Shown here in pieces: positions 1-1,795 of a stretch of 5,563 nucleotides of DNA. The position numbers and the translations under genes were made by a program. The notes beneath the pieces were generated by a model. That model ran no database searches, was not told the DNA's origin, and saw only the letters and a program-made list of their open reading frames with translations. The stretch is from a virus (Duplodnaviria; Heunggongvirae; Uroviricota; Caudoviricetes), in IMG/VR virus record IMGVR_UViG_2541047438_000019, one strand, 5' to 3'. How positions within the stretch are numbered: the stretch's first letter is position 1; each line of letters starts with the position of its first letter.

Positions 1-208
1 ATGTAATCATTCTGGCAATGCTTAATGCCGCTGCTTTTTCCAGATTGGTGATATCCTGCTCCAGAGCGGACAGATTTTCAGCCTGCTTAGCCCTGGCTTC
101 ATTGGCCCATTTCAGATCCTGCGCCGCATTAATTTTCTGGTGCATCCACTCATAAAGTTCATCATCGGTATAGTCTGGCGCGATGATGACGGGTTCTCGT
201 TTCTGCAT
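1..208 (-). CDS. hypothetical phage protein, N-terminal 69 codons only (gene continues past the left edge of the window)
   Basis: Absent from the ORF track because no stop lies inside the window. Reverse-strand ATG at 208-206 is preceded by AGGAG (complement of 214-218, 5-nt spacer). The frame stays open down to position 2. Translation starts MQKREPVIIAPDYTDDELYEWMHQKINAAQDLKWANEAR. No family recognised. Confidence 0.45.
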   Translation of the reverse strand, partial: MQKREPVIIAPDYTDDELYEWMHQKINAAQDLKWANEARAKQAENLSALEQDITNLEKAAALSIARMIT

Positions 209-300
209 GTCGGCTCCTTGTGGTTAGCGTTGCCTGCTTTTAACCACGTCAGGCGAGGTGGTATCCTCTGAGGGGTCTGTTACTCGAGAGGAAATTGGTT

Positions 301-501
301 ATGAATACAATCAAGTTTTCTTGCCCAGAATGTGGTGGCGAAGTCTTTGACACATCCTTTAAGCCGCAGGGCTCTGACAGTTTCGCGGGAGCCATCTGCA
401 AAAATTGTGGTCACCTTGTAACTGAAGATGAGTCCTCGCAGTTCGATGACGAAATCGTTGACAATATCTTCGGTGCACTCACCAGAGACTTTCTGAAGTA
501 A
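301..501 (+). CDS. small zinc-ribbon protein, 66 aa (CPEC-x21-CKNC, acidic C-terminus), function unknown
   Basis: ATG at 301 with GAGAGGAAA at 286-294 upstream (the track ORF starts at an in-frame TTG at 295). Two CxxC pairs 21 residues apart are unlikely by chance. Codons are mostly common E. coli codons. A perfect hairpin follows downstream. The fully overlapping reverse ORF 280-636 is its codon-for-codon antisense and uses rare Arg codons for 8 of 9 Arg. Confidence 0.5.
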   Translation: MNTIKFSCPECGGEVFDTSFKPQGSDSFAGAICKNCGHLVTEDESSQFDDEIVDNIFGALTRDFLK

Positions 502-547
502 AGGCGCATACCGCTTAGTTACCGCTCTGATAACTCTTACCTGTCCT

Positions 548-582
548 GCAATGGCGCTGATGTCAATATAAAGCGCCATTGC
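548..582 (+). terminator. candidate intrinsic terminator: perfect 11-bp stem GCAATGGCGCT / AGCGCCATTGC with 13-nt loop, followed by TGCTTCTTTGCC
   Basis: Inverted repeat read directly (548-558 pairs with 572-582). The downstream tract is T-rich but interrupted, so terminator function is uncertain. On the minus strand no U-tract follows. Confidence 0.35.
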
Positions 583-819
583 TGCTTCTTTGCCGATCCC
601 GGGATGCCTTCCATTCTGATGTTTGACTTCGCCCACTGAGAAACCCTCTGTTTCCCCTTAACGCCGGGGTAGCGGAACAAAAAACTGCTGCATAGTTATT
701 AAAGTTGAACCCTGCCGTCATGTTCATACGCCTCGGGCTGGCTACTTAACCCCTGACCACTGCCGGGTAACTCGAAGTATTTCCCTGCGTTCTGTGGGGC
801 GGGGTGGGTTGGTATTTTT

Positions 820-862
820 AGTTTAATAAACATTAAACTTAAGTCAAGTAAAAACTAAACCG
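820..862 (-). promoter_or_regulatory. distal operator-like module with a sigma70-like promoter on the minus strand (TTGACT-N16-TAAACT), near-duplicate of the module at 1835-1884
   Basis: GTTTAATAAAC (821-831, palindromic) + ATTAAACT + AAAAACTAAACCG (850-862) matches GTTTATTAAAC + ACTAAACT + AAAAAAACACTAAACCG at 1846-1884. Minus-strand TTGACT (complement of 842-847) and TAAACT (complement of 820-825) are separated by 16 bp. Confidence 0.4.
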
Positions 863-867
863 CGGGA

Positions 868-912
868 CATAACAAACACAACGCTTTTGATAAAGTCGTT
901 GCGGTTGTTATG
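868..912. terminator. imperfect 16-bp hairpin (14 of 16 paired, 13-nt loop) 20 bp downstream of the parE-like stop; possible bidirectional terminator
   Basis: CATAACAAACACAACG (868-883) pairs with CGTTGCGGTTGTTATG (897-912). TTTCTATT follows on the plus strand; on the minus strand a T-rich tract follows after an 8-nt gap. Not folded computationally. Confidence 0.25.
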
Positions 913-931
913 TTTCTATTGGTAGTGAAAG

Positions 932-1210
932 TTAGGGAAACTGGCGTCTTGCGTGGATCACGTTTACTACTTCAACGCTTGATGTTGTTACGCGGTATAG
1001 AATTATATAGTTAGGGTGGGCTACAATCTCACGCAAGCCAGGTACTCTGTCGCTTGGTGGGTATAAATACGGATGTTCGGATAACGGCAGCACACAACCC
1101 CTTAATCGCTGCCATAAGCGTTCAGCCGCATCTATGTCGAAACGAGCAATATAACTAGTTATATCATCTAGGTCGGTATCTGCGCTTTCAAGCCATAACA
1201 CGGGTAACAT
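932..1210 (-). CDS. parE2: ParE/RelE-family type II toxin (ParE2-like), 92 aa
   Basis: Translation MLPVLWLESADTDLDDITSYIARFDIDAAERLWQRLRGCVLPLSEHPYLYPPSDRVPGLREIVAHPNYIILYRVTTSSVEVVNVIHARRQFP has the ParE pattern (DLDDI..YIA, EHPY, PGLRE..V..Y.I.YRV, V.V..V.HARR). ATG at 1210 lies 1 nt after the stop of the upstream small gene. The longer track ORF (to 1306) would overlap that gene; ParE proteins are about 90-100 aa. Confidence 0.85.
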   Translation of the reverse strand: MLPVLWLESADTDLDDITSYIARFDIDAAERLWQRLRGCVLPLSEHPYLYPPSDRVPGLREIVAHPNYIILYRVTTSSVEVVNVIHARRQFP

Positions 1211-1211
1211 T

Positions 1212-1403
1212 TTACTGCTTGCTCCGTTCCTTGCGCATCTTAGCAAAGCGTTCTGCCATTCTGCGCTCAACTTCGTCATGGGGAATTGCTGGGCGCGGAT
1301 CTGCAAGGCTCGTTGCTACTTTCGCACGCAGCCATTCGTTGTAACTGTTTTCTTGTTCAATGGTTTCAAATTCAGAAACCATTGGTGAAAGGGCTCTATT
1401 CAT
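1212..1403 (-). CDS. paaA2: small antitoxin partnered with ParE (PaaA2-like), 63 aa
   Basis: ATG at 1403 preceded by GGAGGA (complement of 1409-1414). Translation MNRALSPMVSEFETIEQENSYNEWLRAKVATSLADPRPAIPHDEVERRMAERFAKMRKERSKQ matches my recollection of the short PaaA2 antitoxin of E. coli O157:H7. It sits immediately upstream of the ParE gene in the same operon. The track N-terminal extension (to 1457) would overlap the regulator gene. Confidence 0.8.
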   Translation of the reverse strand: MNRALSPMVSEFETIEQENSYNEWLRAKVATSLADPRPAIPHDEVERRMAERFAKMRKERSKQ

Positions 1404-1423
1404 GTTTCCTCCGGTTTTATAAC

Positions 1424-1795
1424 TCAGGCGCGGCGGCATTTTTGCGCCGCAATCCATCTCGCTATGAGATCTTCCATTGATTCTTTTTTCTGCTTTAACT
1501 CGCTGATTATCTGGCGTTGCTCATCCTCAGGGAAGGCTGAAAAAATCTGCAATAATTCCAGTTGATTAGACGTTAACCCTGCATGTGGTGGAGAACCCCC
1601 CGGTTGTTCTGCGTATTCCGCATCCAGATACCCTTCCGGCATCCCGTATGTTTGCTCTATTCTTCTGGCAGCCTTTTCTCCAAACGAGGCTCTCCCACTC
1701 ATTAGTTGAGATAGGTAGCTCTTCTCTTTGGGTGGCAGAGTTTTATCTTTAAACCACTCCTTGAGACGTAAACGGCGAATTTCTTTTTTTTGCAT
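1424..1795 (-). CDS. paaR2: CI-like phage repressor / regulator of the toxin-antitoxin operon (PaaR2-like), 123 aa, N-terminal helix-turn-helix, no LexA-type peptidase domain
   Basis: Helix-turn-helix-like N-terminus (KSYLSQLMSGRASFGEKAARRIEQTYGMPEGYLD) resembles phage CI repressor DNA-binding domains. Sits at the cI position, divergent from a cro-like gene across an operator-bearing spacer. Start taken at ATG 1795 (MQKKEIRRL); the track start at GTG 1858 would add a hydrophobic 21-aa extension lying over the operator region. Confidence 0.8.
   Translation of the reverse strand: MQKKEIRRLRLKEWFKDKTLPPKEKSYLSQLMSGRASFGEKAARRIEQTYGMPEGYLDAEYAEQPGGSPPHAGLTSNQLELLQIFSAFPEDEQRQIISELKQKKESMEDLIARWIAAQKCRRA

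What the first reader, a model, noticed from the sequence alone, without database searches (positions are those of the whole stretch)
280..636. Zinc-ribbon ORF and its longer antisense shadow both look superficially codable
The plus ORF (301-501) encodes CPEC-x21-CKNC and uses common codons. The minus ORF (280-636, 118 aa) is its exact antisense frame, is longer, and would fit a leftward transcript from the pL-like promoter at 820-847, but 8 of its 9 Arg codons are AGA/AGG/CGG/CGA and the perfect hairpin at 548-582 sits inside it. Gene direction here decides whether the left arm is one leftward operon or holds an opposing gene.
Basis: seen in the sequence. Interest (0 to 1): 0.4.

Follow-up and report, generated by a model that had tools for sequence, protein, structure and literature searches.

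The report
Nested antisense gene pair in prophage
The same ~200 bases of this E. coli O157 prophage appear to encode two different small proteins, one on each DNA strand, and comparison with relatives in other bacteria shows that selection has protected both, so the question 'which strand is the gene?' is best answered 'both'.

Summary
The plus ORF 301-501 encodes a 66-aa CPEC-x21-CKNC protein. The minus ORF 280-636 uses the same codon boundaries on the other strand.

The either/or reading is not supported. The plus ORF is a real gene: it matches NCBIfam NF047912, its four Cys are invariant, and it keeps a conserved promoter-like region, an SD and a hairpin after the stop. The minus ORF is not a mere shadow. 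Its 24-26 N-terminal codons lie outside the plus ORF and evolve like coding sequence in the minus frame (changes 61/49/107 at positions 1/2/3, omega 0.46). It is open in every intact relative. It always runs with the early operon.

Inside the overlap, changes silent in one protein are unusually conservative for the other, in both directions. A control region shows no such effect.

The conserved minus start is ATG 579 (99 aa), not GTG 636.

Caveats: all evidence is evolutionary. Within the window's own E. coli clade only the plus constraint is demonstrable. Three plus nonsense alleles exist. Neither protein has a known function.

Best reading (about 0.7): a nested sense/antisense gene pair that travels as one mosaic module.

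The parts
301..501 (+). Plus gene: a 66-aa Cys4 (CPEC-x21-CKNC) zinc-ribbon protein of the ECs_2282 family, coordinates include the TAA stop.
   Evidence: - NF047912 scores 57.3 bits against a cut-off of 37.
- PGAP annotates it as WP_001092153.1.
- The four Cys, the start and the stop are conserved in Escherichia, Klebsiella, Citrobacter, Enterobacter and metagenomic lineages.
- In the overlap, changes per plus codon position 1/2/3 are 101/42/158. In the E. coli clade alone they are 13/1/42.
- Sites that are 4-fold synonymous in the minus frame and lie opposite the four Cys codons never change.
280..579 (-). Minus gene: a 99-aa protein (ATG 579-577, stop 282-280) that reads through the hairpin and the whole plus gene. 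It is the first sizeable cistron downstream of the pL-like promoter.
   Evidence: - phrog_21318 matches at E = 3.9e-67 over residues 20-118 of the 118-aa reading.
- PGAP annotates the same ORF in EDL933 as WP_001240336.1.
- Coding periodicity in the non-overlapped codons is 61/49/107, p = 2e-6, omega 0.46.
- The ORF is open in all 39 unique sequences of the codon alignment and in the further lineages examined apart from one frameshifted contig, L224.
- Selection acts on the minus protein at plus-synonymous sites.
- The AF2 model has pLDDT 72 and pTM 0.60.
580..636 (-). Probably 5' leader rather than coding sequence.
   Evidence: - No 3-periodicity: variable columns 12/9/11 at codon positions 1/2/3.
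- The GTG is lost by a frameshift in the L065 lineage.
- Homology with non-E. coli lineages ends here.
548..582 (+). Perfect 11-bp hairpin, about 47 nt after the plus stop, followed by the T-rich tail 583-594. It is probably the 3' stem-loop or terminator of the plus transcript. On the other strand it contains the minus start codon and codons 1-11.
   Evidence: - Free energy is -21 kcal/mol, z = -5.
- The core helix is kept in 15 lineages, with UA/CG and GC/AU double changes.
- One pair is G.U in 9 lineages, which would be a C.A mismatch in minus-sense RNA.
- In L177 the hairpin is followed by a run of eight T.
- The simple terminator scan did not call it, because the loop is 13 nt.
232..294 (+). 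Conserved non-coding region upstream of the plus gene. It contains the palindrome GCCTG(232-236)-N13-CAGGC(250-254), the promoter-like TTAACC(240-245)-16-TATCCT(262-267) with TGn at 259-261, and the SD GAGAGGAAA (286-294).
   Evidence: - In the lineages that share it, it lies outside both conserved reading frames (5' of the plus ORF; beyond the minus stop, which precedes the plus ATG there; in E. coli-type sequences the minus ORF overlaps its last 15 bases, 280-294). It is nevertheless conserved in nearly all lineages as GCCTGyCTTTTmACCACrTCAGGCkmGGTGGTATCyT...CAAGAAGGA.
- L179 has the compensating palindrome GCCGGG...CCCGGC.
- The promoter assignment rests on inspection only. The scan's own plus-strand hit at 284-311 is different and overlaps the ATG.
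820..847 (-). pL-like sigma-70 promoter that would drive the minus gene, ydfC and the genes beyond.
   Evidence: TTGACT-16-TAAACT, 9 of 12 matches. It lies between the RelE/RelB pair with the cI-like repressor (932-1795, minus strand) and the module.
210..652 (.). Extent of the mosaic module in E. coli. This block is absent from Qin-like phages, where ydfC is followed directly by ydfB.
   Evidence: Phages 689R5, Tritos, 606R7 and 204576 match the window in two pieces. Judged from their 36-37% coverage of the 1000-base query and from the ydfC-ydfB adjacency in L227, the pieces are about 1-209 and about 653-815.

Best explanation
Window ~210-652 is a compact mobile module that carries two protein-coding genes on opposite strands with identical codon boundaries.

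The two genes:
1. A self-contained plus-strand cassette. It has a conserved promoter-like region (240-267), an SD (286-294), a 66-aa Cys4 zinc-ribbon ORF (301-501) and a stem-loop with a T-rich tail (548-594).
2. A 99-aa minus-strand gene (579-280). It starts inside that stem-loop, reads antisense through the whole plus gene and stops just before the plus SD. It is transcribed as part of the phage early operon, here from the pL-like promoter at 847-820.

Shown here, by comparative sequence analysis: both reading frames are under purifying selection, and each constrains the synonymous sites of the other.

Inferred, not shown:
- In the repressed prophage only the plus cassette is transcribed, in the manner of a moron.
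- Its convergent transcript also acts as an antisense brake on leaky early-operon expression.
- After induction, early transcription runs through the module and makes the minus protein. The two products would then be expressed in alternative states.

The biochemical function of both proteins is unknown. The plus protein is most likely a small zinc-dependent binder of nucleic acid or protein. The minus protein is predicted to be a folded alpha-alpha-beta-beta-alpha domain with no detectable relatives.
For: Minus gene, region not shared with the plus ORF:
- Tree-parsimony changes at minus codon positions 1/2/3 are 61/49/107 over 24 codons (p = 2e-6), with omega 0.46 (CI 0.33-0.62).
- Pairs of non-E. 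coli lineages give, for example, 4/6/15. All four Gly codons and three Pro codons are used at fixed residues.
- An SD plus start is present in every lineage, for example AGGAGAGGAA-ATG in L003 and GGAGG in L005.

Overlap, rates relative to the neutral benchmark of 5.1 changes per site:
- Silent in both frames: 0.83.
- Silent in plus only: 0.56 (CI 0.43-0.71).
- Silent in minus only: 0.36 (CI 0.27-0.47).
- Silent in neither: 0.21, close to the product 0.56 x 0.36.
- The result is robust to dropping the most distant sequences.

Reciprocal test with a built-in control:
- Plus-synonymous changes are more conservative for the minus protein than mutational opportunity (transitions +0.64 BLOSUM, CI 0.29-1.02).
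- Minus-synonymous changes are more conservative for the plus protein (+0.58, CI 0.14-1.05; transversions +0.82, CI 0.13-1.59).
- The same test in the non-overlapped region with a fictitious plus frame is null.

Site level:
- The minus 4-fold sites opposite all four Cys codons never change.
- Plus 4-fold sites opposite minus Trp (CCA/TGG) and the minus VTT motif never change.

ORF maintenance:
- With selection on the plus frame only, the minus frame stays open in all 39 sequences in 0 of 400 simulations, or with p = 0.004-0.011 under conservative settings.
- Plus codons 3-66 use 0 of 41 Leu/Ser codon states that would be minus stops.
- In the 37%-GC lineage L226 both ORFs are intact. There the minus gene uses TTA for 3 of 5 Leu outside the overlap and 0 of 10 inside it.

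Conservation depth:
- Both ORFs are kept at 38% (P0048, L179-182) and at about 37% further on (P0051).

Context:
- The minus ORF is co-directional with the early operon in every locus. It sits on the pL side in the window, L005-8, L172-4, L179-183 and L185, and on the pR side, right after cro, in L003/L004.
- In L173 the plus gene lies next to sieB in the same orientation.

Plus cassette:
- About 60 nt of conserved upstream sequence lies almost wholly outside both reading frames.
- The plus ATG and a strong SD are retained in L003/L004, where the minus ORF has already ended.
- The hairpin is better conserved in the plus sense.
- A plus homologue in Pseudomonas phage KT1 has GC at plus codon positions 1/3 of 0.43/0.73, which marks the plus strand as coding there.

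Annotation:
- PGAP annotates the plus ORF in some copies and the minus ORF in the EDL933 copy.
Against: - There are no transcription, translation or peptide data. Everything is evolutionary inference from about 40 unique sequences, one NJ tree and parsimony counts. Recombination among the E. coli copies violates the tree.
- Within the window's own E. coli-type clade the minus constraint is not demonstrable: plus-silent sites run at 0.92 of neutral (CI 0.45-2.2) and omega of the non-overlapped part is 0.64 (CI 0.28-1.6). There the minus ATG sits in a perfect -20 kcal/mol hairpin behind a weak SD, and the minus ORF uses mostly rare Arg codons. The minus gene may be relaxed or poorly expressed in this particular prophage.
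- The plus ORF carries three independent nonsense alleles: E14* (common, including EDL933), E44* and C33*. Under conservative simulation its openness is not beyond chance (p = 0.4-0.6).
- The OLGenie-style ratio for the minus frame in the overlap (0.61) is only a little below the ratio that a non-coding frame gives in the control region (0.75, CI 0.48-1.21).
- The AF2 model of the plus protein is poor (pLDDT 59). The minus model has no structural neighbour.
- The minus family is tiny, with 8 clusters in 1.8 billion representatives, and was not detected apart from the plus ORF.
- The regulatory (toggle/antisense) part of the explanation is wholly inferred.
Confidence: 0.72

Rival explanations
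1. Plus-only. The zinc-ribbon gene is the only gene, and the minus ORF is a long antisense shadow kept open because the plus gene happens to avoid TTA/CTA/TCA. This is the current PGAP call for this copy.
For: - The plus coding signature dominates the overlap.
- Within the E. coli clade the minus frame shows no significant constraint.
- The minus ORF uses rare Arg codons.
- The minus start lies in a strong hairpin.
- The exact antisense frame is known to give long shadow ORFs.
- The OLGenie-type ratio for the minus frame is close to the control bias.
Against: - It cannot explain the minus-frame 3-periodicity and omega 0.46 in the 24 codons that lie outside the plus ORF.
- It cannot explain the conserved SD and start there.
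- It cannot explain the 0.56 suppression of plus-silent sites, or their bias towards conservative minus replacements while the control is null.
- The minus frame is open in all sequences (p = 0.004-0.011 or less), including the AT-rich L226.
- Plus 4-fold sites opposite minus Trp and VTT are invariant.
- The minus ORF is consistently co-oriented with the early operon.
Confidence: 0.13
2. Minus-only. The early-operon gene is the only gene, and the CxxC...CxxC ORF is its shadow. This is the RAST and PHROG call, and the PGAP call in EDL933.
For: - Gene callers prefer the longer minus ORF.
- The plus ORF has three nonsense alleles, one of them widespread.
- Under conservative simulation the plus ORF's openness is not unusual.
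- The plus AF2 model is poor.
Against: - Minus-silent sites in the overlap evolve at 0.36 of the rate of minus-silent sites outside it. They are slower than minus first positions (ratio of plus-silent to minus-silent rates 1.56, CI 1.17-2.12).
- The four Cys codons are frozen at minus 4-fold sites.
- Minus-silent changes are conservative for the plus protein.
- The promoter-like region and SD are conserved almost wholly outside the minus ORF. The plus ATG is retained where the minus ORF has already stopped.
- TTA is avoided in the minus gene only inside the overlap.
- The match to NF047912 and the GC3 signature of the KT1 homologue also point to plus-strand coding.
Confidence: 0.1
3. Neither ORF is translated, and the block is conserved as an RNA or regulatory element such as an antisense RNA, a terminator or an operator.
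For: - The hairpin and the upstream palindrome are conserved.
- The block sits where lambda has oop/cII-type antisense control.
Against: - No Rfam family matches.
- Strong frame-specific, codon-position-specific substitution patterns are seen on both strands. An RNA element would not produce them.
- All observed indels are multiples of three.
Confidence: 0.03

Closest known systems
ECs_2282 family putative zinc-binding protein (NCBIfam NF047912; RefSeq WP_001092153.1 and NP_310309.2)
   Same: The plus ORF is a full-length member: 57.3 bits against a cut-off of 37, two CxxC pairs, about 66 aa.
   Different: The family entry says nothing about the gene being nested antisense inside another conserved ORF. 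No function or zinc binding has been shown.
PHROG phrog_21318 / FIG00644832 hypothetical protein (RefSeq WP_001240336.1 in EDL933)
   Same: The minus ORF from ATG 579 matches the whole 99-position profile at E = 3.9e-67. It is annotated on this strand in phage Evi and in EDL933.
   Different: This is a sequence-only family built from near-identical calls. It was not previously linked to the zinc-ribbon gene on the other strand.
Antisense overlapping protein-coding gene pairs in bacteria. Examples are the EHEC candidates of the Neuhaus/Scherer group, such as ano/ECs2385 (PMC5960689), asa (PMC6294744) and three EDL933 pairs (PMC9927249), and olg1/olg2 of P. aeruginosa (PMC8850804).
   Same: Two proteins are read from opposite strands of the same DNA. 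One ORF is fully embedded in the other. There is evidence of purifying selection on the embedded frame.
   Different: - Here both partners are small and the embedded one is the 'annotated' one.
- The pair is conserved together across several genera down to under 40% identity and moves as a phage mosaic module.
- The evidence is comparative rather than Ribo-seq.
- This locus appears in Zehentner et al. 2020 only as a BLAST line in Table S12, not among their 216 translated candidates.
Convergent antisense transcripts in lambdoid immunity regions: lambda oop RNA against cII, and P22 sar against ant (own knowledge)
   Same: A short unit with its own promoter and terminator faces the early operon and overlaps an early gene next to cro or cI. 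In L003/L004 the module sits exactly in the cII position.
   Different: oop and sar are non-coding. Here the antisense unit carries a conserved, selected ORF. An antisense regulatory effect is only inferred.
Lysogen-expressed genes set against the early-left operon, such as sieB of the Rac prophage, and lambdoid 'morons' (own knowledge)
   Same: The plus cassette has its own promoter-like and terminator-like signals, opposes pL, and in L173 lies beside sieB in the same direction.
   Different: Morons normally sit between genes, not inside one.

Membership tests
ECs_2282 family (NF047912) | The HMM score reaches the curated cut-off of 37 bits over the full length. | tested here: met
   57.3 bits, residues 4-59 on profile positions 1-56 of 60.
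ECs_2282 family (NF047912) | Two conserved CxxC pairs (putative Zn ribbon). | tested here: met
   C8, C11, C33 and C36 are invariant in intact members of all lineages, including CQKC...CSNC in L179 and CPQC...CSNC in L226.
ECs_2282 family (NF047912) | Actual zinc binding. | not testable with these tools
   The AF2 model made without metal is of low confidence (pLDDT 59).
phrog_21318 | Full-length profile match. | tested here: met
   E = 3.9e-67, profile positions 1-99 of 99 on residues 20-118 of the 118-aa reading.
Antisense overlapping gene pair | Both ORFs stay intact across divergent relatives. | tested here: met
   - Minus: intact in all 39 unique sequences of the codon alignment and in the further lineages examined, except one frameshifted contig (L224).
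- Plus: intact in all lineages except three derived nonsense alleles.
Antisense overlapping gene pair | Purifying selection on the plus frame that is independent of the minus frame. | tested here: met
   - Minus-silent sites run at 0.36 of neutral.
- The Cys codons are frozen.
- Minus-silent changes are conservative for the plus protein.
Antisense overlapping gene pair | Purifying selection on the minus frame that is independent of the plus frame. | tested here: met
   - The non-overlapped codons have omega 0.46 with 3-periodicity.
- Plus-silent sites run at 0.56 of neutral and are biased towards conservative minus replacements.
- The control is null.
- This is not demonstrable within the E. 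coli clade alone.
Antisense overlapping gene pair | Each ORF has its own translation-initiation signals. | tested here: met
   - Plus: GAGAGGAAA-N6-ATG.
- Minus: AGGAG or GGAGG in other lineages, but only AAGAAG in the window, where the ATG also lies in the hairpin.
Antisense overlapping gene pair | Both strands are transcribed and translated. | not testable with these tools
   No expression data were found. The locus is not among the Ribo-seq candidates of Zehentner et al..
Intrinsic terminator (hairpin 548-582) | A G+C-rich stem, a short loop and a following U-run. | tested here: inconclusive
   - The stem is strong and conserved in the plus sense.
- The loop is 13 nt and the tail TGCTTCTTTGCC is interrupted, so the scan did not call it.
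- The relative L177 has a T8 tail.
Sigma-70 promoter for the plus gene (240-267) | -35 and -10 hexamers with 16-18 nt spacing. | tested here: inconclusive
   TTAACC-16-TATCCT with TGn is only 8 of 12 matches and falls below the scan threshold. The motif GGTGGTATCyT is conserved in nearly all lineages.
Lar family restriction alleviation protein (TIGR03655) (considered) | The HMM score reaches the cut-off of 39.6 bits. | tested here: not met
   15.7 bits, E = 0.014. The phrog_6422 match has E = 0.0098 only.
Lambda N-type antiterminator (considered for the minus protein, as first pL cistron) | An N-terminal arginine-rich motif in a disordered small protein. | tested here: not met
   - The N-terminus MALYIDISAIAGQVRVIRAV has no Arg-rich motif.
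- The protein is predicted to be folded.
- No Pfam or NCBIfam hit was found.
Known anti-phage defence proteins (PADLOC) | A significant HMM match. | tested here: not met
   The best plus hit has E = 0.0019 (PDC-M14A, 16.5 bits). The minus proteins have none.

The most novel reading that the evidence does not exclude
The module is an anciently conserved two-proteins-from-one-duplex unit. A zinc-ribbon gene and a codon-aligned antisense gene have co-evolved under reciprocal purifying selection across enterobacterial prophages, and possibly as far as Pseudomonas phage KT1, which shows the same 62-aa-inside-93-aa architecture. The module would work as a lysogeny/lysis toggle: the prophage makes the plus protein and, by convergent transcription, silences the first early gene, while induction reverses the balance.
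Probability: 0.35. Interest if true: 0.8.

Novelty: new member of a known kind. Interest (0 to 1): 0.62.

Why it matters
- Long antisense protein-coding overlaps in bacteria and phages are still disputed. Most candidates rest on ribosome footprints from a single strain.
- Here the argument is evolutionary and reciprocal. It has an internal control and spans several genera, so the pair could serve as a clean test case for overlapping-gene detection.
- It also explains a practical annotation conflict. RAST, PHROGs and PGAP (in EDL933) call one strand, and PGAP (in Sakai and most O157 genomes) calls the other.
- Pipelines that forbid nested genes will always lose one of the two.
- For phage biology, it places a lysogen-type cassette inside the first early gene next to the immunity region. 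That suggests a testable antisense safety-lock on a kil/dicB-type operon.

Tried and rejected
- Structure gave no functional lead.
  - The afdb50 library was unavailable.
  - The plus model was too poor to search with.
- A PDB sequence search with the minus profile found nothing.
- PADLOC found nothing significant.
- Rfam on window 1-1000 gave only a chance miRNA hit.
- The genome-contig scan (one genome per species) gave only two weak or partial hits.
- The IMG/VR scans returned almost only the E. coli allele.
- The representative-library search showed that the minus family is tiny. It yielded one useful distant member, P0051.
- The Pseudomonas phage KT1 antisense ORF shows no detectable similarity to the minus family, so it cannot be counted for or against.
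- The plain OLGenie-type ratio for the minus frame (0.61) was rejected as sufficient evidence. A non-coding control frame gives 0.75.
- The GTG-636 start was rejected.
- N-like antiterminator and Lar-like readings were rejected (see the membership tests).
- Literature searches for ECs_2282, WP_001092153, FIG00644832 and NF047912 found no paper.
Full report
**Where the window comes from.**
- The window is 99.9% identical to a lambdoid prophage of E. coli O157:H7.
- Read on the minus strand from right to left, the left arm holds: a cI-like repressor (1424-1795), a RelB/RelE pair (1403-932), a pL-like promoter (847-820), the region in question, then ydfC (208-2). Beyond the window come dicB and exonuclease genes.
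- The right arm holds cro-like, YdaT-like, O-like and DnaC-like genes.

**The observation.**
- All stated features are present: the plus ORF 301-501 with CPEC-x21-CKNC, the minus ORF 280-636 in exactly the same codon boundaries, 8 of 9 rare Arg codons, and a perfect 11-bp hairpin at 548-582.
  - PGAP calls the plus ORF here ('ECs_2282 family putative zinc-binding protein'; NF047912 at 57.3 bits against a cut-off of 37).
  - RAST calls the minus ORF in phage Evi.
  - PHROGs has a family for the minus ORF (phrog_21318).
  - PGAP itself calls the minus ORF in an EDL933 copy whose plus ORF has a nonsense codon.

**Relatives.**
- Searches with both products, and look-ups of the encoding contigs, gave about 40 unique DNA alleles.
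- Sources include Escherichia, Klebsiella, Citrobacter and Enterobacter prophages and metagenomes.
- The most distant members are P0048 (38% identity to the window's minus protein) and P0051 (a 37%-GC contig).
- Every intact lineage keeps both ORFs: a 62-66-aa Cys4 ORF nested codon-for-codon inside a 93-126-aa antisense ORF that overhangs it by about 26-36 codons at its N-terminus.
- The homology block runs from about 70 nt upstream of the plus ATG to the minus SD and start, and no further.
- In E. coli the block (about 210-652) is an insertion relative to Qin-like phages, where ydfB abuts ydfC.

**Is the minus ORF real?** The decisive region is the part not shared with the plus ORF.
- There, changes on the tree fall 61/49/107 on minus codon positions 1/2/3 (p = 2e-6), with omega 0.46.
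- Pairs of non-E. coli lineages give, for example, 4/6/15. Fixed residues use all synonymous codons.
- A non-coding 3' region of the plus gene would not behave like this.
- The ORF is uninterrupted in all unique sequences apart from one frameshifted metagenomic contig.
- Simulations with selection on the plus protein alone leave the minus frame open in all leaves in 0 of 400 runs. With rates calibrated down to the observed plus-silent count and with codon bias, the probability is 0.004-0.011.
- Plus codons 3-66 never use TTA, CTA or TCA (0 of 41 codon states). The window's own genes use them for about 20% of Leu and Ser codons.
- The minus ORF is co-directional with the early operon in every context. 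It follows pL or the repressor gene in most loci, and follows cro (the cII position) in L003/L004.
- AF2 gives a moderately confident alpha-alpha-beta-beta-alpha fold (pLDDT 72, pTM 0.60, 11 sequences). I treat this as weak support only.

**Is the plus ORF real?**
- In the overlap the fastest position is plus position 3 (plus 1/2/3 = 101/42/158; in the E. coli clade 13/1/42).
- Minus-silent sites, which run at 4.8-5.1 changes per site outside the overlap, drop to 1.7-1.8 inside it.
- The minus 4-fold sites opposite all four Cys codons never change.
- The plus start, stop and SD, and about 60 nt of upstream sequence almost wholly outside both reading frames, are conserved. This includes a GGTGGTATCyT motif that fits an extended -10.
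- In L003/L004 the plus ATG and a strong SD persist beyond the end of the minus ORF.
- In the AT-rich L226 the minus gene uses TTA for 3 of 5 Leu outside the overlap and for 0 of 10 inside it.
- A plus homologue in Pseudomonas phage KT1 has GC3 of 0.73 on the plus frame.

**Both at once.** Rates are given relative to the neutral benchmark.
- Silent in both frames: 0.83.
- Silent in plus only: 0.56.
- Silent in minus only: 0.36.
- Silent in neither: 0.21, close to 0.56 x 0.36. The pattern is robust to subsets.

The simple ratio of doubly non-silent to minus-silent rates is biased: a control non-coding frame gives 0.75. I therefore used a test that holds one frame constant.
- Among changes silent in the plus protein, those that occurred are more conservative for the minus protein than the available mutations (transitions +0.64 BLOSUM units, CI 0.29-1.02).
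- Among changes silent in the minus protein, those that occurred are more conservative for the plus protein (+0.58, CI 0.14-1.05; transversions +0.82, CI 0.13-1.59).
- The same test on the non-overlapped region with a fictitious plus frame is null.

**The hairpin.**
- It lies 47 nt after the plus stop. On the other strand it contains the minus ATG and codons 1-11.
- Its core helix is kept in 15 lineages, with double (compensatory) changes.
- One pair is G.U in nine of those lineages. That is acceptable in plus-sense RNA but a C.A mismatch in minus-sense RNA.
- A T-rich tract follows, and in L177 it is T8.
- I read it as the 3' stem-loop or terminator of the plus transcript. Its T-tract doubles as the A-rich spacer of the minus start. 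It fails a strict terminator definition because of the 13-nt loop and the interrupted tail.

**Corrections and caveats.**
- The 19 codons 580-636 are not conserved as coding sequence, so the minus gene is 579-280.
- Within the window's own clade only the plus constraint is significant. The minus start is weak and structured there, so the minus gene may be relaxed in this prophage.
- The plus ORF has three nonsense alleles.
- No expression data exist. The locus appears in Zehentner et al. 2020 only as a BLAST line.
- No function can be assigned.

**Mechanism.**
- Shown: two co-selected reading frames, a conserved plus-side upstream element, and a conserved plus-sense stem-loop.
- Inferred: the plus cassette is expressed from the repressed prophage and opposes leaky early transcription, in the manner of oop/cII or sar/ant. 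Induction drives the minus gene.

**Verdict.** This is a nested antisense gene pair (confidence about 0.7). It is a new and unusually well-conserved member of a known but rare and disputed class.

Noticed in passing
L228 (EDL933 NZ_CP008957.1 1848502-1848801); also L065, L067, L077, L085, L190 and L222: A GAA->TAA nonsense allele (E14*) of the plus gene is common among O157-type prophage copies. The same change is only F->L in the minus protein. PGAP switches its call to the minus 99-aa ORF (WP_001240336.1) in that copy. Two further independent plus nonsense alleles exist: E44* in L089 and C33* in L183/L184.
   Followed up: partly
window 232-262; L179, L186 and others: Two interleaved inverted repeats lie upstream of the plus gene: GCCTG-N13-CAGGC and ACCAC-N10-GTGGT. 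The first is kept through a compensating change in L179 (GCCGGG...CCCGGC). It could be an operator over the plus -35 region, or an RNA stem at the 3' end of the minus cistron.
   Followed up: partly
L173, L174, L183, L184, L194-L205 (P0040, P0042, P0043); L005-L008: In the Enterobacter-type lineage the minus ORF has a conserved ~32-aa N-terminal extension with its own CxxC motif (MSTSANRKTIKLPAGETFAPISNKCKSCGYVE...), giving 126 aa. The 174-aa ORF of L005 contains a related stretch.
   Followed up: no
L187 (Pseudomonas phage KT1, PQ316073.1) 868-1149: A distant zinc-ribbon homologue (62 aa, 883-1071, plus strand) is again nested codon-for-codon in a 93-aa antisense ORF with a 26-codon overhang and a GGAGG SD. 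That antisense product shows no detectable similarity to the minus family.
   Followed up: partly
window 563-727 (minus strand): The first 25 residues of a 54-aa ORF match phrog_37620 (E = 1e-14). The stretch 653-815 is shared with the ydfB region of Qin-like phages. It looks like a small leader ORF or a ydfB-like remnant cut by the module boundary at about 652.
   Followed up: partly
window 932-1403 (minus strand): A RelE/ParE toxin and RelB antitoxin pair sits between the cI-like repressor gene and the pL-like promoter, inside the immunity region.
   Followed up: no
L173 2323-2823: A sieB (PF14163) gene lies immediately next to the plus zinc-ribbon gene and in the same orientation. Both oppose the early-left operon.
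   Followed up: no
window:301-498:+ against PHROGs: The plus protein also matches the N-terminal part (positions 10-54 of 194) of phrog_4852 at E = 1e-9. The zinc ribbon may therefore occur as a domain of longer phage proteins.
   Followed up: no
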